Assembly (NCBI RefSeq): GCF_026626665.1 | Contig: NZ_JAPNKE010000002.1 | Coordinates: forward strand, 3,501,168-3,565,167 | Direction of reading: 5' to 3' | Source of the DNA: Nannocystis pusilla | GTDB lineage: Bacteria > Myxococcota_A > Polyangia > Nannocystales > Nannocystaceae | Length of the DNA: 64,000 bases | Shown here: piece by piece, positions 1,288-63,164 of the stretch | Numbering within the stretch: the first letter of the stretch is position 1 | Layout: each line of letters opens with the position of its first letter | Made by a program: the position numbers and the translations under genes | Notes under the pieces: model-generated | Told to the model about the DNA's origin: nothing | Database searches by the model: none | What the model saw: the letters and a program-made list of their open reading frames with translations, nothing else

Positions 1288-1306
1288 GCGTGCTCTTCTG
1301 GGGGAG

Positions 1307-2859: not shown

Positions 2860-2881
2860 CGTGCCCCCTACCCTGTCCCGC

Positions 2882-4150
2882 TCACTCGGCCGCCCCGTCG
2901 ACGCGGCCGCGGATGATCGTGTCCTCGAGGATCTCGAGCGCGCGGTCGAGGTCGGCGCGCGTGTGCGCGGCCGTGATCGCGACGCGGAAGCGCAGCCCGT
3001 CCTCGGGCACCGAGGGGTAGTCGACCGGCGCGAGGAACAGCCCGCGACGGTGGAGCGTGCGCGTCAACTCATACAGCCGGCGGCGATCCGATCCGACCAT
3101 GATCGGCACGACCTGACTCGAGCCATGCCCGAGGTCGAGGCCGATCTGCTGCGCCTTCTCGCGGAAGTAGCGGGTGTTGGCCCACAGCGTCTCGCGCAGC
3201 GAGTTGTCGCGGGTCGCCACCTCGAGCGCCTTGCGGAGCCCGGCCACCACCGCCGGCGGCAGCGCGCTGAAGCCGTAGGCGTTGATGTAGTAGCGCATGT
3301 ACTGCAGCAGCGCGCGGCCGACGGTGAAGCCGCCGCAGCCGGCGAACGCCTTGCTGAAGGTCGCGAACTGCAGGCCGATCGACTTCTCGGCGCCGTAGTG
3401 CTCGACCACGCCGCGGCCGTTGGCCCCGTACACGAGGATCGAGTGGGCCTCGTCGATCAGCACGCCGACGCCGTGCTTCTCGGCGACCGGCAGCAGCTTC
3501 GGCAGATCGGCCGTGTCGCCGTCCATCGAGTACACGCCCTCGACCACCACCAGCCGGCGCGCGCCCTCGCTGTCGGTCAGCGCCTGGTCGAGCGAGTCGG
3601 GGTCGTTGTGGTCGAAGAACACCAGCTTGGCGCGCGACAGCTTGGCGCCGTCGATCGAGCACAGGTGGGTCTTGGCGTCGAGGATGGCCACGTCGCCCTT
3701 GCGCAACACGCCGGCCAGCGTGCCCATTCCCCCGGCGAAGCCGCTGTTGAAGAGGATGCAGTCCTCCTGGCCGAGGAACGCCGCCAGCTCCTGCTCGAGC
3801 CCGCGGTGCAGATCCGACAGCCCCGACAGCAGCGGCGATCCGCAGGCCCCGGTGCCGTAGGTGCGCAGGGCCTCCTGCGCCGCCTCGACGACCTCCGGGT
3901 GCGTTGCGAGCCCGAGGTAGTTGTACGAGCTGAGGTTGATGACGTCGCTGCGTTCGCCGGCGCGTTCGATCGCCATGCGCGGTGCGACGGCCCCCAACAT
4001 GTGGGGCTCGTACATCGACATCGCCCAGGAGCCGGCCTCGGCCCACTGCACGAAGCCCTCGGGCGGACGGAGCGGATCGTCGCTGTCCGAGAAGTAGAAG
4101 TCGGCCAAACTGTGCTCGGCTTCGCGGCCCATCACGGAACTCCCCGGCAT
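2882..4150 (-). CDS. alpha-oxoamine synthase family PLP enzyme, serine palmitoyltransferase-like (could alternatively be BioF/Kbl-like)
   Basis: 422-aa ORF with NLSSYNYLGLATHPEVVEAAQEALRTYGTGACGS and SFSKAFAGCGGF (PLP-lysine region), class I/II aminotransferase fold. It is first in an operon with the acyltransferase, dehydratase and KAS. Confidence 0.8.
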   Translation of the reverse strand: MPGSSVMGREAEHSLADFYFSDSDDPLRPPEGFVQWAEAGSWAMSMYEPHMLGAVAPRMAIERAGERSDVINLSSYNYLGLATHPEVVEAAQEALRTYGTGACGSPLLSGLSDLHRGLEQELAAFLGQEDCILFNSGFAGGMGTLAGVLRKGDVAILDAKTHLCSIDGAKLSRAKLVFFDHNDPDSLDQALTDSEGARRLVVVEGVYSMDGDTADLPKLLPVAEKHGVGVLIDEAHSILVYGANGRGVVEHYGAEKSIGLQFATFSKAFAGCGGFTVGRALLQYMRYYINAYGFSALPPAVVAGLRKALEVATRDNSLRETLWANTRYFREKAQQIGLDLGHGSSQVVPIMVGSDRRRLYELTRTLHRRGLFLAPVDYPSVPEDGLRFRVAITAAHTRADLDRALEILEDTIIRGRVDGAAE

Positions 4151-4579
4151 GTCGGGGCCCGGGCGTAGTTACAGCGAAAGTATCGCGGCTGTCACGGAAA
4201 TTCTGTTCCTCAGCGCATGCGGATCCACGTGCAGCGCGCGCTGTCGCCTCGTTGCACATGTTGCAGATTGCGACGCGCTGGCCTTATCGGCGAACTATTT
4301 AAACCGGTGCATAAAATGATGCGCCGCGATACGGCCGCATGCGGCTGCATCGGCCGCTGGTAGTTAATCTCGAGTGCAACAATCTCCACGCCCTGCAGCG
4401 AACTCGACGGCCGAGTCGCGCTCGCGCTCGCGTGTGGACTGCGAAATGCGTCGCACACTGGCTGTATGTCACGCATGCTGCGGACAGGAGACCGCGATCG
4501 AAGCGGCGCGTGGTGAAGCTCTCGGGTCCTGTGTCACAGCCTTGACGTCGACGCGTCGCGGTAGGTAATCCCCCGCTTC

Positions 4580-5673
4580 GTGCGCACGAAGGTCCTCGTC
4601 ACCGGCGCGAACGGCTTCATCGGCAGTCACCTCGTCGATCGTCTGCTCGCGGGCGGCGACGCGGTGCGGGCGATGGTCCGCGCCAGCGCCAACCTCGACA
4701 ACCTCGCCGACGCGCTCGCGCGGACCGACGCGCAGCCCGAGCTCGTGCGCGCGTCGCTGTCCGACGTCGACGCGATGGCGGCCGCGTTCGACGGCGTCGA
4801 CACCGTCTATCACGTGGCCGGCCTGACCGCCGCGTTCACCCGCGACGAGTTCGCGCGGGCCAACGCGGCCGGCGTGGCGAACGTGCTCGCGGCGATCCGC
4901 CAGGCCCGCGACGGCCGCGGCGGCTGGTCTACGTGTCGTCGCTGATGGCCGCCGGCCCCTCGCACCCGGAGGTCGCGCGGCGCGAGCACCACGCCCCGCG
5001 CGTCGGCTACACGCTCTACGGCGACAGCAAGCTCGACGGCGAACGGCTGGTCTTCGCGGCCGCGCGCGCCGGCGACGTCGAGGCCGTGATCGTGCGCCCG
5101 CCCGCGGTCTACGGCCCGCGCGACCTCGACATGTTGCAGATGATCCGCTCGGCCAAGTTCGGGGTCATCGCCCAGCCCGGCCTGCGCCCCGCGTGGATGT
5201 CCTTCATCCACGCCTTCGACCTCGTCGAGGGCATCGCCCGTGCCGGCGCTCGCGGTTGCCCGATCCCCCGCGACGGCGAGCACGTGCTCGCCGATCAAGG
5301 CAGCCCCTTCGACCATGTCCCCGAGGACATCTCCCACCCCGCCGGCGCCGGCATCTACTACTTGACCGACGGCCAGCGCAGCACCGTCGTCGAGTTCGGC
5401 CGGGCCGCCGCCGCCGCGCTCGGCCGGCGGGCGATCGCGCTGCCGATGCCTCAGGCCGCGGTGTGGACCGTCGCCGGCATCAACCACGCGATCGGCCGCC
5501 TGCGCGGCAAGGCCCCCGCGCTGACGCTCGACAAGGCCCGCGGCAGCATGGCCCCGGGCTGGTGGTGCGACGACAGCCGGGCCGTGCGGGAGCTCGAGTA
5601 CGCCCCGCAGTGGCCGCTCGCGCGAGGCCTCGAGCACACCGTCGCGTGGGCCCGCGGCGTCGGTCGCCTGTGA
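4580..5673 (+). CDS. NAD-dependent epimerase/dehydratase family (SDR) protein, apparent frameshift near 4925
   Basis: GTG start gives MRTKVLVTGANGFIGSHLVDRL (Rossmann GxxGxxG). It continues in a second frame (ORF 4933..5673) with YTLYGDSKLDGERL, a YxxxK-like motif. A GC run lies at the junction. Confidence 0.7.
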
Positions 5674-5974
5674 TCCCGCGCGTCCGCCTCGACGCGTGAC
5701 GCTGGCGTCCGCGACGACGGCGTCCACGACGAGGGTCGTTCCGGGCGGCGAGGTCCGGTGCGACCACGCGGCTCGGACCTCGCGCGCCGCGTCGCCAGGG
5801 CACCGGCTCCTGGCGCTCCCGAGGGTGCGCTCTTGCGGTGATTCCGCAGTCGACGGCGTGCGTCGGCGAGGCGTCGCGAGCATGTCGTCCGCCCGTCACC
5901 CGCGGGCGCTTTCGCCGGGTCTTCGGGCCCTCGGGTTCGACCGCGCGGCCGACGTGGAGTAAGACGAGCGCGTC

Positions 5975-7102
5975 ATGCTCCGCCCTTCGGTCGCCGACAT
6001 CGCCTTCGACGCCGCCCTCTTCGACGAGCTCCGCAGCGCCCTCGCCCGCGGCGAGCTCAGCCCTACCCGGGCCCGGCTGACCGCCCCGCCGCGGCCGCTC
6101 GGCGACGACGTCCTGCTCGACCTCGGCCGCGCCGACGCCCGGTCCCGCTGGCGCGCGCGCGGTCAGGAAGCCCTCGCCGCGCGCAAGGTCGCCGCCTTGA
6201 TCTTGAACGGCGGCATGGCCACGCGCTTCGGCGGCGTCGTCAAGGGCGTCGTCCCCGTCTTGCCCGATCGACCTGACCTCTCGTTCCTGGCCGTCAAGCT
6301 CGCCGGCGTCCGCGCGGCCGGCGTCCCGGCCGTCGTCATGCACAGCTTCGCCACCGCGGCCGCCTCGGGCGATCACCTCGCCACCATCGGTTGGTCCGGC
6401 GTCCCTGCCGACGATCGCCTCGAGTTCTTGCAGTCCTTGATGCCGCGCGTCTTGCCGGACGGCACCCCGCTCGTCAGCCTGCCCGGCGCCGACGCCTTGC
6501 CCGACACCACCGTCTACGCCGCGCCCGGCCACGGCGACACCCTCCGGCGCGTGCGCGACAGCGGCGTCGTCGCCGAGCTGCGCCGCAGCGGCGTCGAGCA
6601 CCTCCTCGTCTCCAACGTCGACAACCTCGGCGCCTCCCTCGATCCCACCGTCCTCGGCGCCCACCTCGACGCAGTCGACGGCGGCGCCGAGCTCAGCGTC
6701 GAGGTCGTCGCGCGCGCCCCCGACGACGCCGGCGGCTGCGTCGCCGAGGTCGACGGCCGCGCCACCATCATCGAGTCCTTCCGCCTGCCCCCCGGCGTCT
6801 CCCTGGCCCAGTATCCGCACTTCAACACCAACACCCTGTGGATCTCCCTGGCCGCCCTCGAGCGCCCCTACCCGCTCACCTGGTTCCCCGTCCAGCGCTC
6901 CGTCGAGTGGCCCGGCCGCGACGACCTGCCCGTCATCCAGTTCGAACAGCTCATCGGCCAGATCACCGAATTCGCCCGGACCGCCTGCCTGCGGGTCGAT
7001 CGCGCCCGCTTCCTCCCGATCAAGACCCGCGACGACCTCGCCGCCGCCCGCCCCGCGATGACCGAGATCGTCCGCGGCGTCGGCCTCGATCCCGGCTGAA
7101 GC
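5975..7102 (+). CDS. UDPGP-family sugar-nucleotide pyrophosphorylase (UTP--glucose-1-phosphate uridylyltransferase-like)
   Basis: 374-aa ORF with LNGGMATRFGG, VSNVDNLG and related UDPGP motifs. Confidence 0.8.
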
Positions 7103-7156
7103 CTGCGCCTTCGCACCGCCGCCGGCCCTCCGTCTCCGTCGAGCAGGCCCACGCCG

Positions 7157-7240
7157 ATCGGCATGCCCGCAAGGACATGCCCGTTGCGACATGTCCTCCT
7201 CACCATGTTCCAGACAACATGCCACGAAGGACATGTCCGG
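7157..7240. repeat. phased array of 6 CATG-centred palindromic units at exactly 14-bp spacing (consensus rrGGACATGyCCnn)
   Basis: CATG tetramers at 7162, 7176, 7190, 7204, 7218 and 7232. Units read atcggCATGcccgc, aaggaCATGcccgt, tgcgaCATGtcctc, ctcacCATGttcca, gacaaCATGccacg, aaggaCATGtccgg. Intergenic between the UDPGP gene and pgi. Confidence 0.85.
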
Positions 7241-7691
7241 TAGTTTCCCCAGTCCTCCCCGCCCTCGCCCGCCCCGAGACGTTCCCCGCGCCACCCGTCG
7301 CCGCGCACCGACGAGCGCCGGATAGCTCTCCAGGAGGTCCGAGCGATGGGCGGCCGGCCGGCCGTCCATCGCTCGGAGAGCCTCCCCGCGTCGCGCCCTC
7401 CCGCCACCGGAGCCGACGACCGGCGCTCGGGCCACCCACGAGGCGGGCCGTGCAGCGGTCGGGGACGCGGGTCGGCGCCCATCCGCAGCGAGATGCGCCC
7501 GACGAAGGAGGGTGCATCCGCGAGGACTGGGCGCCGGCCCGCGTCCCCGACCGCCCGCGAGGCGGCCTCGGCAGTTCGCGAACCGAGAGACCCGCAGCAA
7601 GCGCGACGAACCTCCGAAGCAAGGCCGCCCGCCCGAGGCCTGGCGTCCCCAGGCCCCCGCGAGCGCCGACGCTGCTATAAAGCGCGCCGAC

Positions 7692-9321
7692 ATGGCCGAC
7701 GCACTCGACCACTATCTCACCTGGCGCCTTTACCGTGCCGAACTCGACATCGAGCTCGACTTCGCCGACGCCCAGCTCGACGAGCCCGCGCTGACCGCCA
7801 ACGCCCCGCGGCTCGAGGCTGCGCTGGACGCCCTCCACCGGATCGAGGGCGGCGCCGTCGCCAACGCCGACGAGGGCCGCATGGTCGGGCACTACTGGTT
7901 GCGCGACCCGGAGCGCGCCCCCGATCCCGCGATCGCCCAGGCCATCCACGACAGCGGCGGCAGATCGAGGCCTTCGCCGACGGCGTGCGCGGCGGCCAGA
8001 TCCTCGCCGACGACGGTCGGCCGTTCACCGGCGCCATCCTCGTCGGGATCGGCGGCAGCGCTCTCGGCCCGCAGCTGCTCGAGGCCGCCCTGACCGCGCG
8101 CGACAGCGGCCCCGGCTTCAGCCTGCGCGTCCTCGACAACACCGACCCGGCCGGCATCGCCGACCTGCTCGCAGAGACAGGTACGCTCGCGCAGACCTTG
8201 ATCCTCGTCGTCTCCAAGTCGGGCTCCACCGTCGAGACGCGCAACGGCATGCTCGAGCTGCGGGCCGCCTGCGCCCGGCAGGCGATCGAGTTCCCCAGGC
8301 GGGCGATCGCCATCACCCTCGCGGGCAGCGCGCTCGATGAACTGGCGCAGCGCGAGGGCTGGCTGGCGCGCTTCCCGATGTGGGACTGGGTCGGCGGGCG
8401 CACCAGCGTGCTCTCGCCGGTCGGCCTGCTGCCGGCGGCGCTGCTCGGGCACGACTGGCGCGGCCTCCTGCGCGGCGCCGCGGCGATGGACCAGTGGGGC
8501 CGCGTGCGGCCGGCGCGGCGCAACCCGGCCGCCCTGCTCGCCTGGTTGTGGCACCAGCAGGGCTCGGACATGGCCTTCGGGACATGGTCATTTTGCCATA
8601 CAAAGATCGCCTGTCGCTGCTGTCGCGCTACCTGCAGCAGCTGGTGATGGAGTCGCTCGGCAAGCGGCTCGACCGCCAGGGCCGCGAGGTGTGGCAGGGG
8701 CTCGCGGTCTACGGCAACAAGGGCTCGACCGACCAGCACGCCTACGTGCAGCAGCTGCGCGACGGCCTGCACAACTTCTTCGCGGTGTTCGTGCGGGTGC
8801 TCCGCGACCTCGACGGTCAGGTCACGGGCCCGGGCATGGTCGAGGTCGAGCCGCAGGTGAGCTCGGGCGACTGCCTCGACGGCTTCTATCAGGGCACCCG
8901 CGCCGCGCTCGCCGAGCGCGGTCGGGCCAGCGCGACCATCGTCCTGCGCCAGGTCGACGCTGCCGCCGTCGGCGCCTTGATCGCGCTGTTCGAGCGCGCG
9001 GTCGGGATCTACGCCGAGCTCATCGACGTCAACGCCTACCACCAGCCCGGCGTCGAGGCCGGCAAGCAGGCGGCGAAGGGCGTGCTCACGCTGCAGGCCG
9101 CGGTGCTCGCCGCGCTGACGGGCGGCTCGGGAAGCAAGACCGCGCGCGAGCTCGCCGAATCGCTCGGCGCCGACCCGGTGGCGGTGTGGCAGGTGCTGCG
9201 TCACCTCGCCAGCAACGGCCGCGTGAGCGTCGACAGCCTCGTCGATCCGGCGGCTGCACAGTTCACGCGCGCCTTGACGCGCGAGACGTCGCGGGCGAAG
9301 GGCGAGTATCCTCCCGCGCCC
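7692..9321 (+). CDS. pgi: glucose-6-phosphate isomerase, with two apparent frame changes (~7961 and ~8585) and no in-frame stop before the downstream MATE gene
   Basis: ATG at 7692 gives [13 protein letters not shown]...AIHDSGG. Frame 2 continues [12 protein letters not shown]...[13 protein letters not shown]...[14 protein letters not shown]...[16 protein letters not shown]. Frame 3 continues [27 protein letters not shown]. Confidence 0.75.
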
Positions 9322-10740
9322 ATGGCCTCGGTCCCCGGACTCCGCGCGCTCATCACCCTCGCCTGGCCGATCGTGCTCGCACGCTCGGCGCAGTCGGTGA
9401 TCAGCTTCAGCGACGCGGCCATGGTCGCCCCGCTCGGCGATGACGCGCTCGCGGCCGCGACCACGGGCGCCATGAACGCGCTGGGGATCCTCGTGCTGCC
9501 GATGGGCATCACGTTCATCGTCCAGAGCTACGCGGCCCAGCTCGCCGGACGCGGCGACCTCGCCAGCGCGCGCCGCTACGCCTGGTACGGCGTGTGCCTG
9601 GCCGCGCTGGCGATGCTCGCCACCATCGCCGCCATCCCGGCGATAGGCCCGCTGCTGTCGCTCACCGGCCACGAGCCGGCGGTGCGCGAGGTGATGGCCG
9701 AGTACATGGCGATCCGCATGCTCAGCACCGGCGTGGTCGTCGGCACCGAGGCGCTCGGCAACTGGTTCGCCGGCCTCGGCGACACCCAGGTGTCGATGCG
9801 GGCCAGCCTGGTCGCCATGGTCGTCAACATCGGCCTCAACTGGGTCCTGATCTACGGCAACCTCGGCGCCCCCGCGCTCGGCGTCCAGGGGGCCGCGTGG
9901 GCCAGCGTGTTCGCCAGCGTGGCCGGCTTCGCGGTGTGCTGCCACGCCTTCTGGCGCGCGCGCGACCGGCGGACCATCGACCCGGCGGCGCTCGGCCACG
10001 TCGAGCACCCGGTACCTGACCTTCCGGACAGCTCGGACGGCCGCCTCGACCTGCGCGAGTTCTCGCGGATGATGCGGTTCGGCCTGCCGAACGGCCTCAA
10101 CTGGTTCCTCGAGTTCGCGGCCTTCTTGATCTTCATCAACCTCGTGGTCGCCGAGCTCGGGACCGTCGCCGTCGCGGCGCTGATGGCCGTGGTGGCCGTC
10201 AACTCGGTCTCGTTCATGCCCGCCTTCGGCCTCGGCTCGGCCGGCGCGGTGCTGGTCGGCCAGGCGATCGGCGCCGGCCGCCACGACCACGTGCCGCGGA
10301 TCGTGATGCGCACCTTCTCGGTCGCCGCCGCGTGGCAAGGCCTGGTCGGGCTGCTCTACTTCGCGATCCCGGTGCCGCTGATGACGATCTTCGCCCGCGA
10401 CGAGCTCGAGACGTCCAGCGAGGTCGTGCACCTCGGCGCCCAGCTGCTGGCGATCAGCGCCGTGTGGCAGCTGCTCGACGCCTCGGTGATCACCTTCAGC
10501 GAGGCGCTGCGCGCCGCCGGCGACACCGCCTGGCCGCTGGTCCTCCGGATCGCGCTCGCCTGGGCGATCTGGCTGCCCCTGGCCTGGCTGACCGTGTTCG
10601 TCTGGGACGGCGGCGCGACCGCGGCGATGTGGAGCATGTGCGTGTACATGGTGTTCCTGGCCCTGGCGATGGTGCTCCGCTTCCGCACCGGCGCCTGGCG
10701 CCGCATCGACATCACCGGCCGCGGCGCGACCGGCTGATCG
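9322..10740 (+). CDS. MATE family efflux transporter
   Basis: [45 protein letters not shown] followed by about 12 predicted TM segments, a typical MATE N-terminus and topology. Confidence 0.8.
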
Positions 10741-10806
10741 AGCATGCCCTCGAGGGCATGTTCTCGAGCATGTCCTCACGGACATGCTCCCCGGACATGC
10801 GCTTCA
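10738..10806. repeat. array of 5 CATG-centred units (spacings 14, 12, 14, 13 bp)
   Basis: gagCATGccctcgagggCATGttctcgagCATGtcctcacggaCATGctccccggaCATGcg, lying between the convergent 3' ends of the MATE and DUF1963 genes. Confidence 0.8.
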
Positions 10807-12292: not shown

Positions 12293-12378
12293 GGGCGCAT
12301 CATAGCGACCGGCCGGATTCCGCGCTCGCCCCGCGCAACGCTTCGCCCCCGAACCGACGATGCGCGCGAGGATCTGCC

Positions 12379-15728: not shown

Positions 15729-15797
15729 CCGGCGGGGACCGGCCGCGCCGCGCGGGGACGGGCCGGGAGGCCCGGGGCCGTGTTATGGTGCGCGCCG

Positions 15798-20718: not shown

Positions 20719-21858
20719 ATGCCCAAGCTGGTGCGCGAGGCGGAGGCCGACGACGCCTCGGCCCAGTCGACCGCGCGAGGGGCCATCCCTTCGGAACATG
20801 CCCCCGAGGACATGTCTCTGGCGACCGGTTCCAAGGCGCAGGTCGACGCGACTGGCGACGCCGCCGAAGCCAGCGGGTCCGTCGCGGCCCCGCCGGCGGC
20901 CGACCGCCCCGCGGCCGCGCCGGCCGCCGAGCCGCCCGCGAGCGACGAGCCGTCGACCGAGGAGCCGGCCGCGACCGCCGAGGCCGCCTCCGGCGCGGCG
21001 CTCGACGACCGCGAGATCGACGCGGTGATCGAGGACTTCTTGCAGAACCCGGCCGAGTGGACCAGCGTGTCGCGGCTGCGCGCGCTCGACGAGCGCGGTC
21101 TGGCCCGCCTGGCCGCGCGCTTCCCCGGTCCCATCGACCTCGCCAACGCGACCAACTTCCCGCCGCCGAGCGCTCACGGCCCGCTGCTGCGCGCCTGCGT
21201 CGAGCTCGGCCACGCGGTCAGCCCGCACGTGCTCGCCCTGTTCGCCAGCGCACGGCCGCAGATCCGCTTCTACGCCGCGTTCCTGTTCCAGGAGCTGCGC
21301 GACCCGAAGTGCCTGCGGCCGCTCGGCGAGCTGGCGTTCGACCCCGACCCCGACGTGCGGCTGATCGCCACCCGCGTGCTCGAGTCCTACAGCCGCGTGC
21401 CCGACTTCGCGACGGTGGCCGCGGAGATCCGCGGCGAGCTCGAGAGCTCGGACCGCGACCGCCAGCTGCTCGCGGTCGAGGCCGCCGGCACCCTGCGCGA
21501 CACCCTCGCGGTGCCGCGCCTCATCGACCTGCTGGCGGTCCGCGACAAGCACGTCCGCGAGGCCGCGCTCGAGGCCCTGTGCTCGATCACCGCCAAGCAC
21601 CACGGCTACCGCGCCCAGCGCTGGCGGGCCTGGTACGCCGAGCACGGCCAGGAGCCGCGCATCGAGTGGGTCATCGACGGCCTGCGCCACCGCGACGAGG
21701 CCGTGCGCCGCTGGGCCGCCGACGAGCTGGCGCGGATCACCGGCCAGCGGATCCCGTTCCCGGCCGAGGGCGACCGCCGCAGCCGCGACCTGGCCCTGCG
21801 CGCCTGGCAAGCCTGGTGGGACAGCAACCGCGAGGACTTCACCGCCGGTAGCTGAGCG
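20719..21858 (+). CDS. HEAT-repeat (PBS lyase-like) protein
   Basis: ATG 3 bp after the preceding stop. It has repeated ...AAFLFQELRDPKCLRPLGELAFDPDPDVRLIA.../...LIDLLAVRDKHVREAALEAL... HEAT-like units. Confidence 0.7.
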
Positions 21859-21867
21859 CCTGTCGCT

Positions 21868-21937
21868 TCGGGCATGTCCTCGAAGACATGCCCGAAGCAG
21901 CATGGCGTTTCGGGCATGTCCTCTGGACCATGGCCCG
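21868..21937. repeat. array of 5 CATG-centred units at exactly 14-bp spacing
   Basis: CATG at 21873, 21887, 21901, 21915 and 21929. Units are ttcgggCATGtcct, cgaagaCATGcccg, aagcagCATGgcgt, ttcgggCATGtcct, ctggacCATGgccc. They lie between convergent gene ends. Confidence 0.85.
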
Positions 21938-22115
21938 CGCGCCACCCGAGCGGGCGCGAGGCGTGCTCACCGGTACGGCCGCAGGCCCGGCCGTCCGGGC
22001 GCGGCCTTCGCCCATGCCCACGACCGCCGCGGCCACGGCGCCGCACCTGCGCGGCCCGAGCTCGCAAGGGCTCGGCGCAAGCATGACCGTCCGGACATGC
22101 TCCGTCGATCCCCGC

Positions 22116-23023: not shown

Positions 23024-24070
23024 GTGAGGACCAGCGTATCCCCCGTGCGAGAAGCTTGGTATAGGGCCGGCGTGCCCCACGTCCCTGCCCTCCTCGCGCG
23101 ACTGCGCGACGAGCCGCGCTACCTCGCCGCGCTGGCAGCGCTGCTGGTCGACGAGGTCCTCGCTGCGCCGGCGCGCCGCTTCATCGATCCCGTCCGGCTG
23201 ACCCCGCTGATCGTCACCGGCCTGCAGGCCGTCGCCGCCGCGCCCGGCCACGCGTCGTGGCTGGAGCAGCGCCTCCGCGACGCTCTGGCCCGGATCCGTC
23301 CGCGGCAGGGCACGCTGCGCGCGCGGCTGCCCGGCGACCTGCTGCCGTTGCTTCGCACCGTGGTCCGCAGGCCCTACACGCCGAACCGCGCGCTCGTGCG
23401 AGCCGTCGTCGATCAGGCGACCGTGCGCGACCTGTCGCGCACGATCCTCCACACCACCCTGCTCGACTTCGCCAAGAAGGTCGGCTCGATCTTGCCGGAC
23501 ACCAGCAAGATCCCGGGCGCCGGCGTCACCTCGAAGCTGTTCGGCGTCGCCAAGGGCGTGGCCTCCGTGGTCGGGCTCGACGCCTCGGTCGAGGATCGCG
23601 TGCGCGGCTTCGTCGACGGCGCCGTCGGTCGCGTGATCGACATGATCGTCGACCGCGTCAGCGACCCCAAGCACGCCGGCGAGGGCGCGGCCTTCCGCGC
23701 CGACGTCCTCGCCTCGCTGCTCGACCTGCCGGAGTCGGCCGTCCACGCCAAGCTGGTCAAGCTCGACCCGGCCGTGGTCGCGGCCGACGTCCAGGCCGCG
23801 CTGGTCGCGGTCGCAGCCTGGGACCGCCTGCCCGCCGAGGTCGAAGCCGTCCTCACGGAGGCGGTCGCCGGCCTCGGCGACGTCACGGTCGGCGAGCTGT
23901 TGGCCGGCTCGGGCGAGATCGAGGCGTGGCGCGGCGCGGTCGAGGCCGAGCTGCGCTACCACCTCGGCCACGGGCTCACCGGCCCGCGCTTCGCCGCCTG
24001 GCTCGAGCACCTGGTCGCCGGGACATTGCCCGAAGAGCAGGTCCCTGCGGACAGCAACACGGAGTGAGCT
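23024..24070 (+). CDS. hypothetical protein
   Basis: 347-aa ORF with balanced protein-like composition; start uncertain. Confidence 0.45.
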
Positions 24071-24252
24071 GCGCATGTGCTTCGGGACATGTCCTGAAGC
24101 GCATATTCGCGGACGAGATACTTCCTGCGAGCGTCGCCTCGCGCGAGCCCGGCAGCCCGCGAGTCAGGGCGCCGTGAACGTGCACGCCGACAGGCGTCGC
24201 AGCAGCGGCGTTGCCCCGGCGCCCGCGCCCGGCTGGTTCATGCCCCTGCCGC

Positions 24253-24500
24253 TCACGCGACCTCGCCGAGCGGGCGCGCGCGGCCGATCGCCGCGCCCAT
24301 CTGGTTCACGCCCCATCCGCCTGCGAGACCTCGCCGAGCGGGCGGGCGAGGCCGATCGCAGCGCTCAGCTGCTTCACACCCTGCCGCTTGCGCGACCTCG
24401 CCGGGCGGGCGGGCGAGGCCGATCGCAGCGCTCAGCTGCTTCACACCTGCCGCCTGCGCGACCTCGCCGAGCGGGCGGGCGCGGCCGATCGCCGGGTCGG
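24253..24500. repeat. about 4 tandem copies of a 63-bp unit
   Basis: tgcgcgacctcgccgagcgggcgggcgaggccgatcgcagcgctcagctgcttcacacc repeated. Confidence 0.75.
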
Positions 24501-25077
24501 CGGCGGCCAGGTCCTCGTAGGCCTCCGGGTTGGCCTGCTTGAGCGCCCCGCCGGGGGCTTCGGCCGTGCCGACGAGCTCGCGGATGCCTCGCACCGACCC
24601 GTAGTAGTTGCCGTTGTCGTGGTCCTCGTCGCTGTTGCAGCGGCGGATCAGCGAGCGGGACAGCCGTGGCAGCTGCAGCATGTCGAGCGCCATCTCCCAC
24701 AGGCCGTCGACGAAGTTCTGGTCGGCCGGGAACTCGAGCAGGCCGGCCAGCAGCAGCAGCAGCCCGGCGCGCTGGCCGAGCGGCGTGTCGAGCGGCGGCG
24801 CGTCGGCGAGGTAGCCGAGGTCGATCGCCCGCCACCACGCCTCCGCGGCGACCAGCAAGCGCTTGAGCTCCTGGGCGCTGTGGCTGAGGTGGCTGTGGAA
24901 CAGCACGTCGGCGGTCAGCGCGTCGCCGGCCGGGTCGCGGACGTAGCGGACCACCGCGGGCAAGCGGCCGAGCTCTCCGCGCGGGCCCTTGCCGGCCGGC
25001 ACGTCGCGCGGCGGCTCGGCGCCGCTGAAGAAGCCGCCGGCCCGAAACGCGTAGAGGATCTCGGCCTGACCCGGCAA
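24253..25077 (-). CDS. hypothetical protein with C-terminal 21-aa tandem repeats (AAIGRARPLGEVAQAAGVKQLS)
   Basis: TTG-start ORF. The C-terminus is encoded by the 63-bp tandem repeats at 24253-24500, and the reading frame is disturbed within the repeats. Confidence 0.35.
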   Translation of the reverse strand: MPGQAEILYAFRAGGFFSGAEPPRDVPAGKGPRGELGRLPAVVRYVRDPAGDALTADVLFHSHLSHSAQELKRLLVAAEAWWRAIDLGYLADAPPLDTPLGQRAGLLLLLAGLLEFPADQNFVDGLWEMALDMLQLPRLSRSLIRRCNSDEDHDNGNYYGSVRGIRELVGTAEAPGGALKQANPEAYEDLAAADPAIGRARPLGEVAQAAGVKQLSAAIGLARPPGEVAQAAGCEAAERCDRPRPPARRGLAGGWGVNQMGAAIGRARPLGEVA

Positions 25078-26834: not shown

Positions 26835-26997
26835 CGCACCCTCCGAAGGCGCGAGCGTAACACGCTGCCACGACGTCACCGGACGCGCGCTCCACGCGCC
26901 CGGGCGCAGCGGCGCTGGAGCGATACGACATGTCCCTCGGGACAGCCATGGAAGTCGGTGAACCGTGGTCACGCGCCGCGGTTCGATGTTCTGCGCC

Positions 26998-33895: not shown

Positions 33896-34621
33896 TCAGC
33901 GGGAGAAGTCGATGCGCTCCTGCATCGGGATGAGGGTCTGGGTCACGTACTTGACCTCCTTGCCGAGGTCCGCGTCCCACACGCCGAGGGTGATCTTGAC
34001 GCGCTCGGGCAGGCGGTTGGGCTGCATGTCCTGCTTCATCGTGCGCCACTCGTCGCGCCACTCGATGCGCTTGACGTCCCAGAACTTGACGTCGAACGAC
34101 TTGATGTCCTCGCAGAACACGTAGGCCGGCCACCACTCCTCCATCTTCTCCGGCACGTCGCCCATGAGCCGCCGCGTCTCGCGCTTGAACAGGTGGGTGC
34201 GGTTGGCGTCGTTCGGGTCCTTGGCGAGGAAGTACTGGACGACCGACTGGTCGCTCTCGTTGGCGTCCTTGCGCATGCGGATGTGGGCGAACGCCGAGAA
34301 CGTCAGGCTGTCGGAGTTGAACTGGTCGCGGCCCTCGAACAGCGTGTAGTGCCTGTCGTCGCCGGCCGGGCGGTTGTGCGACAGGTACGCCAGCGAGACC
34401 TCGGTGCCCATGCGCGCCAGGCAGTTGCGCAGCACCGCGTACTTCTGCTGGGTCTTCTCCGCCGAGCGCATGCTCTGCGCCGTGGTGCTGAAGCTGGCGT
34501 AGACCGAGGCGGTCATCATCGTCATCATCGCCACCGCGACGAGGATCTCGATCAGCGACAGGCCGCGCTGGCGGGCTGTCCTGGAGGACATGGTCGGAAC
34601 GACATGGCCGATGGCGCTCAT
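33896..34621 (-). CDS. gspJ: type II secretion minor pseudopilin J
   Basis: MSAIGHVVPTMSSRTARQRGLSLIEILVAVAMM prepilin signal. Start is either ATG 34621 or 34591, and a CATG/GGACAG motif overlaps the start region. Confidence 0.75.
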   Translation of the reverse strand: MSAIGHVVPTMSSRTARQRGLSLIEILVAVAMMTMMTASVYASFSTTAQSMRSAEKTQQKYAVLRNCLARMGTEVSLAYLSHNRPAGDDRHYTLFEGRDQFNSDSLTFSAFAHIRMRKDANESDQSVVQYFLAKDPNDANRTHLFKRETRRLMGDVPEKMEEWWPAYVFCEDIKSFDVKFWDVKRIEWRDEWRTMKQDMQPNRLPERVKITLGVWDADLGKEVKYVTQTLIPMQERIDFSR

Positions 34622-35382
34622 CGCTTCCCTCCCATGCCCATGCTCGCGCCCGGCCCCGTCGCGCCCGTCTGGCGCCCGCCGGCCGGCTGCGCCCCGGTGC
34701 CGGTGCCGGTCCCTGTGCCGGTCCCGGCCCCGCCGCCCTGCGGCTTCTCGTCGCCGAGGTCGCCCTCCTTCGCCTCGCCGCCGAGGCCGGGCAGCTGCTT
34801 GAGCTTCTCCGGGTCGGCCCAGAAGGTGTTGACGATGAACTCCTCGTCGAGGTTGCCGTTCCTCCACTTGACCGTGCACTTGACCTTGCGGATCGAGCGC
34901 TCGATCGCCTGCTTGACCGGGGTCCAGACCATGCCGAGCGCCGTGAACGCCTGATCGGCGGCGCTGCGGTAGTACATGCTGCTCTCGCCGCGGTTGGCCC
35001 GGTCGGTGTCGTCCTTGGCCGCGCGCAGCTCGGTGAACTCCGGCAGCTTGAGGAAGTCGACGATGCACTTGTACTTGACGTCGGGCCAGCCCTGGTCGGC
35101 GAAGGTGCCCTCGTAGAACTTGTCCTCGAGCACCCAGCCGCCCTCCTTGCGGACGATGTACTCGGTCTCGATGAGCTGGTAGTCGGCGAGGAACGCCACC
35201 GAGGTGATGGTCTGGGCGTAGCGAGTAGCCCGCAGGCTGGCCATCTGCGAGGTGAGCATCGAGGTCAACGACAGCGCCAGCACGGCCATGGCGATCATGA
35301 CCTCGAGCAGGGTGAAGCCTGCGGCGGCGTAGCGCTGCTCGGGCGGCCGCAGCCGCGGGCGCTTGGTGTCGGGCGAGGTCAT
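34618..35382 (-). CDS. gspI: type II secretion minor pseudopilin I
   Basis: AAGFTLLEVMIAMAVLAL prepilin signal. Confidence 0.75.
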   Translation of the reverse strand: MTSPDTKRPRLRPPEQRYAAAGFTLLEVMIAMAVLALSLTSMLTSQMASLRATRYAQTITSVAFLADYQLIETEYIVRKEGGWVLEDKFYEGTFADQGWPDVKYKCIVDFLKLPEFTELRAAKDDTDRANRGESSMYYRSAADQAFTALGMVWTPVKQAIERSIRKVKCTVKWRNGNLDEEFIVNTFWADPEKLKQLPGLGGEAKEGDLGDEKPQGGGAGTGTGTGTGTGAQPAGGRQTGATGPGASMGMGGKR

Positions 35383-49706: not shown

Positions 49707-49730
49707 TCGCCTGTCTTTGCGGACAGGCGA
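49707..49730 (+). terminator. stable hairpin TCGCCTGTC-tttgc-GGACAGGCGA immediately after the oxygenase stop (no U-tract)
   Basis: 9-bp perfect stem with a 5-nt loop, 15 nt downstream of the stop codon. It belongs to the CTGTCC/GGACAG motif family, and further partial copies lie at 49745-49800. Confidence 0.35.
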
Positions 49731-50446
49731 GCTGCGCGAGAGATGACCTGTCCCTGGGGACATCCTCGCGGTTTGGGATCGCGGATGTCTGCAAGGACAG
49801 GCGCCCGCTCAGGGCGTGTAGCTCGGCAGCTCGACCACGTAGGCGTCGACGGTCTCGCCGCCGCCCCAGTCGCTGCCGAACAGGATCCGCGTGCCGCTCG
49901 GGCTCGGGACGGCGGTCGGGGCGGCCCAGTACGGCTCGCCGAGGTTGGTGTTGTTCTGCCCCCAGCTGCGATGCCGGCCCACGCGACCCGGGCGCCGCGA
50001 TACATGGCACATGTCCTTCAAGCCATGTTCGACTTCGTCGGGCCGCCCGCGACGTGAGGCTCGCCGACCTCGTAAACCGCCGCAGAACGGCGACTGCAGG
50101 CCGCAGGGCGCGCATTCGCCTGTGCTGCCGAAGCCGATCGACGTGTTAGCGTCGACCTATGACATTCGCTTCGCATCGATGGACCTTCGCGCTCGTCTTC
50201 GCCTGCGGTTGCGGCGGCGGCAGCAACGACGCCAGCGACCCGACTGCGGCGACGACCGAGACCGGGACCACCGGCGAGCCGGTCGACCCGCCCGACCGTC
50301 GGACACGGCGCAATGTCTCGATCGACATGTCACAAGGGCCAGCCGTGAACGGGCGCGGCCGCTCGCGGTCGCAAGACCCAGTCCGGGGCGCGCGTCCGCG
50401 TCCGCGCGAGTTGCGGAGGTCGCCTCGCCGCGTGTACGATCGCGCG

Positions 50447-57900: not shown

Positions 57901-58150
57901 ACGGGCGAGCGCCTCGGAGGGGGCGCGAACGAGGGGCTCGTCGCCTCACACGGCCTCGGGCTCGAGGACGGCCGGCTGGCGGGCGGCGAAATCACCGGGC
58001 GGTCGAGCCCGGCACGGAGCCGTCTCGACCGGGTCGGACGGAGGACGGTTCACGCCTGGAGCTTCGGCGGCCGCGAGAGCCGGCGTGACGCGGGCTGGCC
58101 GATGAGACAGGTCCGCCGGGGCAGCCGCAGCCGGCGCCCGAAGGATGCCC

Positions 58151-59100
58151 TTAAGGACATGTCGCGGGGGCCAGCTTGCACTCGCTGAACCAGGCGGCCA
58201 CGTCGCGGCACTGCGGGTCGGCCGGGTCGGCGGCGGCGCAGGCGAGGAAGCCGGCGCGGTCGCGCAGGGAGCACAGGCGCGGCAGCTCCCACTTGCGGTC
58301 GCGGCAGCTGGCGTCGCGCGGGTCGCAGGTGCTGCGCATCCAGGTCGCGGTGCCGTCGCCGCGGAGGAACACGCGGTCGTCGATGTCGCGGGTGCCGACG
58401 AGGCCCTCGACGCGGAGGCTGGCGGCGGCCTCGCCGGCGAGCGCCTGGTAGAGGCAGGCGTCGCCGGCGACCTCGTCGTCGCACGGGCGCGGCGAGGCGC
58501 ACGCGTCGAGCAGCGCGAGGGCGATGTCACCCGGGCAGCGGCCGGCCGCGCACACGCAGGCGCACGCCTCGGGATCCTGCGAGCCGAGGCCGCACTCGGT
58601 CCAGCCCGCAGGATGCTCGGGGCCGGGAATTCGCCGGCCTTGCGACCGACGCGGCGGACGTGGACGACGTCGCCGACCCGCTTGTAGAAGGTGGAGTCGT
58701 AGTCCTCGTCGCCGGTCGAGGCGCTGGCGGTGGCGCAGAAGCCCGCGGCCTCGAAGGCGCAGGTCGAGCGATCGGCGAGGCGCTCGGTGGCGAACCAGAT
58801 GCAACCGGCGGCGTCGCAGTCGGCCTCGACCGCGTGCGACTCGCACGGCTCGACGGGCGCGGGCGGGAGCTCGGGCGCGAGGTCGGGCGGCGGCGTGACG
58901 AGGGCGCCGGTGCCGGTGACCGGCATGCTGGTGGCGGCGTCGCCGGTGCTCGTGCTGCCGGCGGTGCCGGTGGTGCTCCCCTCGCCGGCGGTCGCCACGG
59001 TGCTGCCCTCGCCGTCGGTGCCGCGCGAGGCCGCGTCGGACCGCCCAGGGCTACACCCGGTCGCTACCAGCCACGAGAAGAGAACGGCGACGCCCGCCGG
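58151..59100 (-). CDS. Cys-rich secreted lipoprotein; apparent frameshift near 58650
   Basis: MRLGLGARPAGVAVLFSWLVATGC lipobox and Cys-rich segments in two frames, ending ...FSECKLAPATCP*. Confidence 0.45.
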
Positions 59101-60079: not shown

Positions 60080-60195
60080 TTCGGTGCGCGATCACATGCC
60101 CGAAAGAACATGTCTATCTCGTACGACATGTTTACCGGCAATGCTCCATGAAGCATGTCTTTTCAGCCATGCCTGAAAGAGCATGTCCCTTCGCA
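60080..60195. repeat. array of 8 CATG-centred units (spacings 15, 18, 20, 7, 14, 14, 14)
   Basis: CATG at 60084, 60099, 60117, 60137, 60144, 60158, 60172 and 60186, e.g. aaagaaCATGtcta, aaagagCATGtccc. Confidence 0.8.
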
Positions 60196-60268
60196 CATGG
60201 TGCCCTCGCATCCGAGCGACACGCCAGTCCTTCGCGCCTCGTACGCGCCCTCGCGGGCCTGCGGCGCC

Positions 60269-63017: not shown

Positions 63018-63164
63018 GGTGTTCTTCGGGACATGTCCGCAGGGACTTATCGGGGCGAAGGTCCTTCTACCTGTCTTTTCGGTCATAGGAGAGAGCGCCC
63101 ACCGGCGATCCGGACGGCGCTTGCGGACGCGACCCGCGCGCTGCTATCGAGGTCGCACCCCCCA

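What the first reader, a model, noticed from the sequence alone, without database searches (positions are those of the whole stretch)
7157..7240. Dispersed family of CATG-centred palindromes organised in strictly 14-bp-phased intergenic arrays
Six CATG tetramers lie at exactly 14-bp spacing here: 7162, 7176, 7190, 7204, 7218 and 7232. Each has purine-rich 5' and CC-rich 3' flanks, giving the consensus rrGGACATGyCC. Equivalent arrays occur at 10738-10806 (5 units), 21868-21937 (5 units, exact 14-bp phase) and 60080-60195 (8 units). Shorter 2-unit copies lie at 20797/20811, 24075/24088, 50004-50028, 58145/58159, 62387/62401 and 63034. Perfect GGACATGTCC decamers occur at 7227, 24085 and 63031. 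In 64 kb of ~70% GC DNA fewer than 0.1 are expected by chance. Fourteen is neither a codon multiple nor a helical repeat. Each array contains overlapping palindromes: GGACA|TGTCC on the CATG and TGTCC-N4-GGACA across the spacer. Most arrays sit between convergent gene ends. The clearest hypothesis is an abundant dimeric DNA-binding protein with cooperative sites, possibly nucleoid-associated. A REP/BIME-like palindromic element is a second possibility. A link to the orphan DNA methyltransferase at 45058-46785 is pure speculation.
Basis: seen in the sequence. Interest (0 to 1): 0.85.

Follow-up and report, generated by a model that had tools for sequence, protein, structure and literature searches.

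The report
Phased CATG palindrome arrays behind genes
Short palindromic DNA modules, repeated exactly every 14 bases just after the ends of genes, occur throughout the myxobacterial genus Nannocystis and are kept intact by selection, pointing to an undescribed REP-like element with a sequence-specific reader.

Summary
CATG pairs 14 bp apart occur 23 times in the window against 0.57 expected. GGRCATGYCC occurs 8 times against 0.40 expected. Other palindromic cores in the same flanks are at chance.

The window is a Nannocystis pusilla-group genome. In a truncated scan of 185,579 species genomes, 31 of 108 hits were Nannocystis. All other taxa had plain direct minisatellites.

Array ends show that the repeating unit is TGyCC-N4-GGrCA, and CATG is the junction between units. 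Arrays lie 2-40 bp after stop codons. Of the intergenic arrays with both flanks known, 34 were convergent, 21 co-directional and 0 divergent.

Across four N. pusilla strains, the CATG positions of the flagged array diverge 1.4%. The RRR/YYY flanks diverge 11% and the N4 spacers 37%. Codon third positions diverge 4.6%. No indels occur inside the array, and one other array differs by exactly one 14-bp unit.

No RNA strand asymmetry was found. No repeated master copy was found. Folding is only slightly better than for randomly reassembled units.

Best reading: a genus-specific REP/BIME-like family at gene 3' ends whose CATG core and register are under selection, implying a symmetric sequence-specific reader. 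The function (terminator, barrier or topology site) is inferred. No description was found in the literature searched.

The parts
7157..7240 (.). Array 1 (the flagged one). Six CATG junctions at 7162-7232 in exact 14-bp phase, 63 bp after the stop (7099) of the UDP-glucose pyrophosphorylase gene and upstream of pgi.
   Evidence: Identical in L001. Present with six slots and no indels in three other N. pusilla strains. Absent from Nannocystis sp. SCPEA4.
10738..10806 (.). Array 2. Five CATG junctions that fill the 66-bp gap between the convergent MatE (stop 10737) and DUF1963 (stop 10804) genes.
   Evidence: Sister strains have 4 or 5 units in exact phase, and L198 lacks exactly one 14-bp unit. 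SCPEA4 has an unrelated hairpin here. L116 has 2 units.
21861..21937 (.). Array 3. Five CATG in exact phase, 18 bp after the stop (21855) of a HEAT-repeat gene. Includes a 14-bp-stem palindrome at 21865-21898.
   Evidence: (fold z = -6.2). All five CATG are kept in strain L201. The stop-proximal 34-bp palindrome is 100% identical there, while the two distal units have diverged.
22077..22104 (.). Two-unit copy 16 bp after the stop (22116) of the convergent minus-strand gene.
   Evidence: Not conserved in L201.
21980..22019 (-). GC-rich remnant of an array. Strain L201 has three phased CATG here. The window keeps only one, and the differences are A/T in L201 against G/C in the window.
24069..24103 (.). 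Two-unit palindrome centred on GGACATGTCC (24085), 7 bp after the stop at 24067.
   Evidence: z = -3.4. The central decamer is conserved in L201 and the second CATG is lost there.
20792..20819 (.). Two-unit copy about 80 bp after the stop at 20716. It lies within the 5' extension of my gene call for 20719..21855.
   Evidence: Conserved in L198.
26924..26951 (.). Single unit TGTCCCTCGGGACA plus a neighbouring CATG, about 48 bp downstream of the stop of the minus-strand sigma-54 activator gene (26998).
34577..34606 (.). Unit plus two phased CATG, 12 bp downstream of the stop of the minus-strand gene 34618..35382 (an operon-internal junction).
49712..49799 (.). Three single TGTCy-N4-GGACA units 37 bp apart, after the stop at 49692. 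They are not in 14-bp phase.
50003..50027 (.). Short copy with CATG at 50003, 50010 and 50024.
58146..58164 (.). Single high-scoring unit TGCCCTTAAGGACA followed by TGTCG.
60090..60201 (.). Array with eight CATG (60095-60196, spacings 14, 18, 20, 7, 14, 14, 14), about 70 bp downstream of the stop (60269) of a minus-strand hydrolase gene.
   Evidence: (z = -3.5).
63020..63038 (.). Unit TGTTCTTCGGGACA joined to TGTCC, giving the perfect decamer at 63029, 6-15 bp after the stop at 63014.

Best explanation
This is a Nannocystis-specific family of extragenic palindromic modules.

Anatomy. The repeating unit is the 14-bp dyad TGyCC-N4-GGrCA. Units are joined head to tail, so a CA|TG junction falls every 14 bp, embedded in RRRCATGYYY. 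Units and arrays sit directly behind stop codons, most often between convergent genes.

How it works. In position and behaviour it resembles a REP/BIME family. The self-complementary modules can give stem-loops or cruciforms at gene 3' ends, and arrays are gained, lost and resized in 14-bp steps between close relatives.

What selection preserves is the CATG core and the exact register, not particular hairpins. This implies that a symmetric, sequence-specific reader recognises RCATGY at fixed spacing. The most likely reader is a dimeric DNA-binding protein or DNA enzyme.

Shown: anatomy, location, genus distribution, turnover, and selective constraint on CATG and register.

For: - Enrichment and phase: 23 against 0.57 expected. 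In 352 kb of Nannocystis DNA, nearest-neighbour CATG spacing in intergenic DNA is 14 bp in 159 cases, 13 bp in 2, 12 bp in 2 and 15 bp in 0.
- Core specificity: only CATG is enriched between GGR and YCC (8 against 0.40). GATC, TCGA, CCGG, CGCG and ACGT are at or below chance.
- Unit definition: the left ends of arrays keep TG-YCC and the right ends keep GGR-CA.
- Location: of the arrays with both flanks known, 34 are stop/stop, 21 stop/start and 0 start/start. In unbiased loci, 27% of genes have a unit within 100 nt after the stop, peaking at 15-30 nt.
- Taxon: 31 of 108 scan hits are from 7 Nannocystis assemblies. The consensus is the same in 6 species groups.
- Turnover: the array is absent from or replaced in SCPEA4. 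Unit number differs between strains, including one exact 14-bp indel.
- Selection: window against 3 sister strains gives CATG 1/72, flanks 12/106, spacers 22/60, codon position 3 at 4.6% and aligned intergenic DNA at 5.9%. The four-strain column test of CATG against spacer gives p = 1.7e-5. There are 0 gapped columns among the 80 array columns, against 70 of 153 columns outside the array.
- All five CATG of array 3 are kept in L201.
- Where an array is lost, its A/T positions are replaced by G/C.
- Pairing: arrays fold well (z = -3.5 to -6.2). Positions -1 and +18 covary (0.66 against 0.39 in isolated pairs).
Against: - No reader protein was identified, and no functional data exist.
- Real arrays fold only slightly better than arrays rebuilt from randomly drawn family units (mean z = -0.47; array 1 z = -0.11). 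Hairpins beyond the shared motif are therefore weakly supported.
- There is no T-run after arrays, so they are not canonical intrinsic terminators.
- No sense-strand signature was found: fold energy favours the sense strand in 9 cases and the antisense in 11; G-U-type mismatches 29 against A-C-type 36; UUCG loops 3 against 7.
- The selection test rests on two aligned arrays across four strains, plus two more arrays compared with one strain.
- Register-preserving exchange of units could mimic part of the CATG conservation.
- Most extra loci were chosen because they carry arrays with 4 or more units.
Confidence: 0.5

Rival explanations
1. Pure protein-binding platform. Each RRRCATGYYY (or each TGyCC-N4-GGrCA dyad) is a site for a dimeric DNA-binding protein that coats the array cooperatively. 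Three units span 42 bp, about four helical turns. Hairpin potential is only a by-product of palindromic sites. The coated array acts as a roadblock terminator, an insulator, or a supercoil or chromosome-organisation site at convergent gene ends.
For: - CATG and the exact 14-bp spacing are conserved while spacers are free.
- Units within an array are no more alike, directly or inverted, than units of different arrays.
- Folding is hardly better than for random unit combinations.
- There is full strand symmetry.
- Array 1 contains units that cannot form their own hairpins, yet keeps all CATG.
Against: - The junction hexamers are anti-palindromic within arrays (odds ratio 0.37). Independent symmetric sites would not predict this.
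- Positions -1/+18 and 4/13 covary as base pairs.
- About 17% of arrays are clearly more self-complementary than random unit sets.
- In array 3, the perfect stop-proximal hairpin is the fully conserved part.
- Flank positions predicted to be paired are better conserved than unpaired ones (although the structure was derived from the same sequences).
- No protein is known.
Confidence: 0.25
2. RNA-level element only. The arrays are transcribed 3'-UTR stem-loop clusters that terminate transcription or protect mRNA 3' ends. CATG is merely inherited stem sequence, kept because stems must pair.
For: - Position 2-40 bp after stop codons and absence from divergent regions.
- Strong predicted folds.
- An ordinary hairpin occupies the same place in a relative.
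- The three one-sided changes in the array 1 consensus fold are all U-G on the sense strand.
Against: - No sense/antisense asymmetry in fold energy, G-U against A-C mismatches, or tetraloops in co-directional contexts.
- No U-tract.
- Loop length is fixed at exactly 4 nt, although hairpins tolerate 3-8 nt.
- Pairing alone does not explain why only CATG is used genus-wide, or why CATG is kept in units that do not pair well.
Confidence: 0.12
3. Selfish miniature mobile element (REPIN/RAYT-like or other) that accumulates in the only tolerated sites, with no function for the host.
For: - Presence or absence differs between close relatives.
- The location is a 'safe haven' typical of REPs and MITEs.
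- Units start with TG and end with CA.
Against: - There is no repeated master copy. No family 14-mer occurs more than 3 times in 64 kb.
- There are no conserved flanks or terminal repeats beyond the units.
- No recurrent transposase-like gene lies near arrays.
- CATG is conserved at orthologous positions at about one third of the synonymous-site rate. Fossil copies of a selfish element would not show this.
Confidence: 0.08
4. Methylation-linked clusters. A CATG (or RCATGY) DNA methyltransferase marks the arrays and a methyl-dependent reader acts on them. The first reader linked this to the putative methyltransferase gene at 45058-46785.
For: - CATG is the most conserved part of the unit, and its R/Y context matches known type II specificities (own knowledge: NlaIII CATG, NspI RCATGY).
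- CATG is not avoided in the genome: 257 observed against 164 expected.
Against: - The only evidence for the gene is a borderline PF01555 hit (26.8 bits against a cut-off of 26.7).
- No specificity can be inferred, and no methylome data were found.
- Methylation does not explain the 14-bp register.
Confidence: 0.04
5. Chance or assembly artefact.
For: The window is an error-prone assembly, with 9 small deletions in 7.6 kb against L001.
Against: - 23 observed against 0.57 expected.
- Identical array in an independent assembly.
- Orthologous arrays in three other strains.
- Same family in 7 Nannocystis assemblies.
Confidence: 0.01

Closest known systems
REP elements and BIME clusters of enterobacteria and pseudomonads
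   Same: - Abundant, dispersed and extragenic.
- Imperfect palindromes behind stop codons and between convergent genes.
- Clustered in regular arrays in which neighbouring copies tend to be inverted.
- Variable between strains.
- Known to act as 3'-end stem-loops and as protein sites for gyrase and IHF (own knowledge).
   Different: - The unit is 14 bp rather than about 35 bp.
- Units abut in a strict register with no linker motifs.
- The consensus is short and degenerate (RRRCATGYYY) with free spacers, and there is no GTAG-type foot.
- No repeated master sequence.
- No RAYT link is known.
- No RNA-strand signature.
REPIN/RAYT systems
   Same: Doublets of inverted modules form long hairpins (for example 21865-21898). 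The family persists across a genus while individual loci turn over.
   Different: REPIN populations are dominated by many identical copies of 20 nt or more. Here units within and between arrays are equally dissimilar. An associated transposase could not be tested.
Tandem phased operator arrays of ribbon-helix-helix proteins (MetJ 8-bp met boxes, omega 7-bp heptads, ParR/ParG centromere repeats; own knowledge)
   Same: Short units, often palindromic, abut head to tail in an exact register. The core is conserved and cooperative coating by dimers is expected.
   Different: Those arrays are single promoter or centromere sites. Here there are on the order of a thousand arrays or more per genome by extrapolation, all at gene 3' ends and none in divergent promoter regions. 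The protein is unknown.
Intrinsic terminators, 'cluster hairpin' terminators and lineage-specific terminator motifs (mycobacterial TRIT; inverted DUS/USS pairs; PMC8355165 and own knowledge)
   Same: Position just after stop codons. G+C-rich stems. Bidirectional use between convergent genes. A lineage-specific conserved sequence.
   Different: - No T-run.
- A fixed 4-nt loop and a fixed 14-bp register.
- The conserved element is a 4-bp palindromic core rather than a long exact word.
- Rare in coding DNA, unlike uptake sequences.

Membership tests
REP/BIME | Extragenic, at 3' ends of transcription units or between convergent genes | tested here: met
   34 convergent, 21 co-directional, 0 divergent. 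Peak 15-30 nt after stops.
REP/BIME | Imperfect palindrome able to form a stem-loop | tested here: met
   Fold z = -3.5 to -6.2 against shuffles. However, only slightly better than random sets of family units.
REP/BIME | Unit of about 20-40 bp with a conserved sequence including a GTAG-type tetranucleotide at the foot | tested here: not met
   The unit is 14 bp, TGyCC-N4-GGrCA. There are no conserved positions outside the units.
REP/BIME | Clusters with copies in alternating orientation | tested here: inconclusive
   T/A-type and C/G-type units tend to alternate (odds ratio 0.37; -1/+18 covariation). Whole-unit comparison shows no inverted or direct similarity.
REP/BIME | Binding by gyrase, IHF or Pol I, or stabilisation of mRNA | not testable with these tools
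   Needs experiments.
REPIN/RAYT | Highly repeated near-identical sequence of 20 nt or more (a master copy and its mutant cloud) | tested here: not met
   No family 14- or 16-mer occurs more than 3 times in 64 kb. Units of one array are as different as units of different arrays.
REPIN/RAYT | Single-copy Y1 transposase (RAYT) gene flanked by the repeats | not testable with these tools
   No whole-genome access. No recurrent transposase-like family was found among 31 array loci.
Intrinsic (Rho-independent) terminator | G+C-rich hairpin directly followed by a T/U run | tested here: not met
   T frequency is 0.24 or below at every position after arrays.
Intrinsic (Rho-independent) terminator | Strand-specific RNA signature (G-U tolerated, stable tetraloops on the sense strand) | tested here: not met
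   G-U-type 29 against A-C-type 36. UUCG 3 against CGAA 7. Fold energy 9 against 11.
Phased protein-binding operator or centromere array | Short units abutting in an exact register with a conserved core | tested here: met
   Spacing of 14 bp in 159 of 163 neighbour pairs spaced 12-16 bp. CATG 1.4% against spacer 37% divergence.
Phased protein-binding operator or centromere array | Located in a promoter or partition site, with a cognate binding protein | tested here: not met
   Location is never in divergent promoter regions. The protein part is not testable here.
Ordinary minisatellite (VNTR) | Direct head-to-tail copies that resemble each other | tested here: not met
   Adjacent-unit identity is 0.39, the same as the between-array control of 0.39. 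Hits in other taxa and in viral contigs are plain direct 14-bp tandem repeats of near-identical units.

The most novel reading that the evidence does not exclude
The arrays are loading platforms for an undescribed sequence-specific protein that coats the DNA behind about a quarter of Nannocystis genes. Each dimer occupies one 14-bp unit, and three units make four helical turns. The protein would act as a genome-wide, protein-based, bidirectional transcription barrier or terminator, or as a positive-supercoil manager, in a 72% G+C bacterium that lacks U-tract terminators. Under this reading the hairpin potential is incidental.
Probability: 0.2. Interest if true: 0.85.

Novelty: new variant of a known kind. 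Interest (0 to 1): 0.62.

Why it matters
Extrapolating from the density in the window and in the unbiased loci, Nannocystis genomes of 11-13 Mb would carry on the order of a thousand arrays or more, behind roughly a quarter of their genes. That would make this one of the larger repeat families in any bacterium. I found no description of it in 8 million full-text papers.

Unlike classical REPs, the information is reduced to a 4-bp palindromic core in a rigid 14-bp register, with free and fast-changing spacers. This is a clean signature of a sequence-specific reader that can be fished out directly with an array probe.

The family offers a tractable entry to two open questions. The first is how transcription units end in very G+C-rich bacteria that lack canonical terminators. 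The second is what maintains REP-like families over long times.

Practically, the arrays are strain-variable in 14-bp steps and could serve as typing markers. They will also confuse gene callers, because the ATG inside CATG creates false starts.

Tried and rejected
1. A 14-bp unit inserted into the pgi coding sequence at 8569-8583. Removing 14 bp restores a reading frame. However, all relatives encode G-x-G-H-G-L-R-D-M there and carry the same pair. The window simply has a 1-bp deletion, so the pair is coding sequence.

2. Rfam. No family reached its gathering score in the whole window. In the relative L110, the conserved block upstream of pgi gave only spurious microRNA-precursor hits.

3. 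RNA-level selection. Sense against antisense fold energy, G-U against A-C mismatches, and UUCG/GNRA loops in co-directional contexts all showed no asymmetry.

4. A master copy or mobile-element structure. The k-mer spectrum, conservation beyond array ends and recurrent neighbouring genes gave nothing.

5. Recent tandem duplication. Units within an array are no more alike than units of different arrays.

6. Other palindromic cores in the same flanks are at chance. A core-agnostic two-unit pattern was too strict to be informative.

7. Phage or plasmid origin. The scan of viral contigs gave only ordinary direct repeats.

8. The unit matrix finds many hits inside one large gene (window 16376-18616; L110 19.6-21 kb; L111 17.7-18.3 kb). 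These encode repeated C-P-x-G-Q peptides and are a coincidence of codons.

9. Four arrays with 3 or more units appeared to lie 'inside genes'. All sit where third-position G+C collapses, so they result from start codons that my gene caller extended too far.

10. Literature searches for Nannocystis or myxobacterial repeats, REP/RAYT, hairpins and CATG methylomes found nothing relevant.
Full report
**1. The observation**

The flagged segment reads GGCATGCCCGCAAGGACATGCCCGTTGCGACATGTCCTCCTCACCATGTTCCAGACAACATGCCACGAAGGACATGTCC. CATG lies at 7162, 7176, 7190, 7204, 7218 and 7232.

- In the 64-kb window (71.7% G+C), CATG pairs exactly 14 bp apart occur 23 times. Dinucleotide-preserving shuffles give 0.57 +/- 0.79. 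No other spacing up to 70 bp exceeds 9.
- GGACATGTCC with at most one mismatch occurs 29 times against 1.9 expected.
- GGRCATGYCC occurs 8 times against 0.40 expected. The same flanks around GATC, TCGA, CCGG, CGCG or ACGT are at or below chance.
- The window is an error-prone assembly. Against an independent short-read contig of the same strain (L001, Logan ERR2215891) it shows one mismatch and nine small deletions in 7.6 kb. The array itself is identical in both.

**2. The organism and where the family occurs**

- A reconstructed PGI protein is 91% identical to that of Nannocystis sp. SCPEA4.
- The PGI-MatE read-through of the window matches an N. pusilla entry. Three N. pusilla assemblies are 94-97% identical to window positions 1-19,500.
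- I scanned one genome per species (185,579 species) for four CATG at 14-bp spacing.
- Of these, 31 come from seven Nannocystis assemblies: exedens DSM 71, punicea, radixulma, bainbridge, sp. RBIL2 and a MAG.
- No other genus contributes more than two stretches. Those hits, and all 79 hits in viral contigs, are ordinary direct 14-bp tandem repeats of near-identical units.
- The unit consensus is the same in all Nannocystis species groups.
- A Nannocystaceae MAG at 66% PGI identity (L115) has no intergenic array in 21.6 kb; its only phased CATG pair is the conserved pgi coding one.

**3. Anatomy**

I aligned 151 phased pairs on CATG.

| Positions | Composition |
|---|---|
| -3 to -1 | 85-88% purine (G, G, A/G) |
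| +4 to +6 | 88-94% pyrimidine (T/C, C, C) |
| Four central positions | Close to free, and A/T-enriched |

- At the left end of arrays, the next slot keeps TG (T 0.44, G 0.76) followed by YCC, but not CA. At the right end it keeps GG-CA (C 0.66, A 0.51), but not TG.
- The repeating unit is therefore the 14-bp dyad TGyCC-N4-GGrCA, and CATG is the junction between units. Beyond the half-units nothing is conserved.
- The same unit occurs singly or at other spacings, for example at 49712, 49749 and 49786.
- Within arrays the junction hexamer is preferentially ACATGC or GCATGT rather than ACATGT or GCATGC (odds ratio 0.37, n = 187). Isolated intergenic CATG show the opposite (odds ratio 5.4), and coding CATG are near neutral (1.4).
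- Positions -1 and +18 are complementary more often than expected: 0.66 against 0.39 in isolated pairs and 0.51 against 0.41 in longer arrays. T/A-type and C/G-type units therefore tend to alternate, giving inverted neighbours.
- Whole units within an array are no more alike, directly or as reverse complements, than units of different arrays (0.39 in every comparison).
- No family 14- or 16-mer recurs more than three times in the window.
- As a curiosity from my own knowledge, RRRCATGYYY is also the consensus of a p53 half-site. I regard this as coincidence.

**4. Location**

I called genes from third-position G+C in 275 kb of Nannocystis DNA (87% coding).

- Of the intergenic arrays with both flanks known, 34 lie between two stop codons and 21 lie between a stop and a start, next to the stop. 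None lies between two starts.
- Distances to the stop are typically 2-40 bp. Some arrays fill the whole gap between convergent genes, for example 10738-10806.
- Arrays with 3 or more units that appeared to be intragenic all sit where third-position G+C collapses. They are artefacts of over-extended start codons.
- In the loci not chosen for carrying arrays, 27% of genes have a unit within 100 nt after the stop, against 9% before the start. The peak is at 15-30 nt.
- With the unit matrix on 352 kb, intergenic hits are 110 convergent, 79 co-directional and 13 divergent.

**5. Turnover**

- Nannocystis sp. SCPEA4 (PGI 91% identical) lacks array 1, as part of an indel of about 99 bp. In place of array 2 it has an unrelated hairpin of similar length.
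- A relative at 84% identity (L116) has two units after matE.
- L114 carries arrays after other genes of the same cluster.
- Among the N. pusilla strains, array 2 has 4 or 5 units, and L198 differs by exactly one 14-bp unit.
- The 12- and 13-bp spacings of the window's array 2 coincide with gaps relative to all three sister strains. They are probably deletion errors of this assembly.
- Strain L201 has a three-unit array where the window (21980-22019) keeps one CATG and otherwise has G/C where L201 has A/T.
- The pair at 22082/22096 is absent from L201.

**6. Selection**

Array 1 is present in all four N. pusilla strains with six slots.

- In the four-way alignment, 1 of 24 CATG columns varies, 12 of 36 flank columns vary and 13 of 20 spacer columns vary.
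- None of the 80 array columns has a gap, while 70 of the 153 surrounding intergenic columns do. Fisher's test of CATG against spacer gives p = 1.7e-5.

Divergence of the window against the three strains:

| Class | Divergence |
|---|---|
| Array 1 CATG | 1/72 (1.4%) |
| Array 1 flanks | 12/106 (11%) |
| Array 1 spacers | 22/60 (37%) |
| Codon positions 1, 2, 3 | 1.5%, 1.1%, 4.6% |
| BLAST-aligned intergenic DNA | 5.9% |

- Array 2 gives pairwise divergence of 5.6% for CATG, 13% for flanks and 30% for spacers.
- In array 3 all five CATG are kept in L201. The stop-proximal 34-bp perfect palindrome is identical, loop included, while the two distal units differ at 6 and 3 of 10 positions.
- The CATG core and the register are therefore under constraint. 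The spacers change several-fold faster than synonymous sites.
- The cause of the fast spacer change is not resolved. It could be a mutational hot spot, G+C pressure on A/T-rich positions, or small register-preserving exchanges.

**7. Hairpins, and RNA versus DNA**

- The arrays fold into long stem-loops (z = -3.5 to -6.2 against shuffles). One example is GCTTCGGGCATGTC-CTCGAA-GACATGCCCGAAGC at 21865-21898.
- Arrays rebuilt from randomly drawn family units fold almost as well. The mean z of real arrays is -0.47 (p = 0.01 for 3 or more CATG). About 17% fall below -1.64, and array 1 is at -0.11.
- Most of the pairing potential therefore comes from the shared self-complementary module. A minority of arrays carry extra complementarity.
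- The consensus fold of array 1 across strains pairs CATG 1 with 2, 3 with 6, and 4 with 5. It shows one compensatory change and three sense-strand U-G changes, but its covariation term is zero.
- In co-directional contexts there is no sense-strand signature. Fold energy favours the sense strand 9 times and the antisense 11 times. G-U-type mismatches number 29 against 36 A-C-type, and UUCG loops 3 against 7 CGAA.
- There is no T-run downstream of arrays.
- The loop is fixed at 4 nt: spacing is 14 bp in 159 cases, 13 in 2, 12 in 2 and 15 in none.

**8. Interpretation**

The family has the genomic behaviour of REP/BIME elements. It fails their sequence definition and the REPIN criterion of a repeated master copy.

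What is conserved is a palindromic 4-bp core with purine/pyrimidine flanks in a rigid register, symmetric on both strands. This is what a symmetric reader of DNA would impose. It is more than base pairing alone requires.

The weak but real inverted-neighbour covariation, and the perfectly conserved stop-proximal palindrome of array 3, indicate that intrastrand pairing also matters in at least some copies.

I therefore favour a REP/BIME-like 3'-end element read by a sequence-specific factor that is probably dimeric (confidence 0.5). Narrower rivals are:
- a pure protein-binding platform (0.25);
- a pure RNA terminator or stabiliser (0.12);
- a selfish mobile mini-element (0.08);
- methylation-linked clusters (0.04).

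The function at 3' ends is inferred from position only.

**9. Novelty**

Five full-text searches found no description of such repeats in Nannocystis or other myxobacteria. I class the finding as a new variant of a known kind, namely extragenic palindromic repeat families. Three features are unusual: the 14-bp unit, the strict head-to-tail register, and selection focused on a 4-bp core with fast-changing spacers.

Noticed in passing
window 1-7583, and throughout: The window carries frequent 1-3-bp deletions relative to an independent short-read contig of the same strain: 9 gap openings in 7.6 kb, all of them missing bases in the window. These split genes. For example, pgi changes frame near 7955 and near 8566, and pgi and matE read through as one ORF (8584-10737).
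   Followed up: yes
window 7300-7560 (L110 9540-9830): A non-coding block upstream of pgi is much better conserved between Nannocystis species than its surroundings (for example CCATCCGCAGCGAGATG.GCCCGACGAAGGAGGGT.CATCCGCGAGGACTGGGCG). It has no Pfam hit in any frame tried, and only spurious microRNA-precursor hits in Rfam. It may be a leader or a small RNA.
   Followed up: partly
window 16376-18616 (L110 19650-21000; L111 17727-18288): A large repeat-rich gene (only faint HEAT hits in relatives) contains many copies of TGTCCCTTCGGRCAG-like 14-mers, including 45-bp tandem repeats at 16940-17311. In frame they encode C-P-x-G-Q repeats and mimic the intergenic unit by coincidence of codons.
   Followed up: partly
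window 45058-46785 (minus strand), repeat at 45442-45680: This is the putative DNA methyltransferase ORF (PF01555 at 26.8 bits against a cut-off of 26.7). It has a 120-bp tandem duplication and six unit-like TGTCy-N4-GGRCA hits in its 3' third. The coding quality of that part is lower (second-position G+C 0.61).
   Followed up: no
window 24223-24494: Four tandem copies of a 67-68-bp repeat (85% matches) inside the ORF 24253..25077 (minus strand), which has no Pfam hit.
   Followed up: no
window 11587-11741: Three copies of a 51-bp tandem repeat rich in CGTCGT, inside the minus-strand DUF1963-family gene. On that strand it probably encodes an acidic low-complexity stretch.
   Followed up: no
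window 61626-63014, at 62382-62409: An exact 10-bp direct repeat, GGACATGTTC, recurs 14 bp later, inside an ORF that joins an NAD-binding/epimerase domain to an Rce1-like CAAX protease domain. The third-position G+C frame does not change across it. It is unresolved whether this is one fusion protein or two genes separated by a family copy.
   Followed up: partly
L005 3315-3374: The last CATG of a five-unit array supplies the ATG start codon of the downstream gene, whose product begins M-S-Q-E-P-A-V-V-I-V-G-A-G-P-A-G (a dinucleotide-binding motif). Arrays can therefore abut start codons and mislead gene callers.
   Followed up: partly
L023 3846-4044 (N. punicea): Four tandem copies of a larger repeat of about 55-68 bp, each containing two phased CATG units (CATGAAGCATGTCnCTTCCGACATGnCC). 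Units can therefore also be amplified as parts of longer repeats.
   Followed up: no
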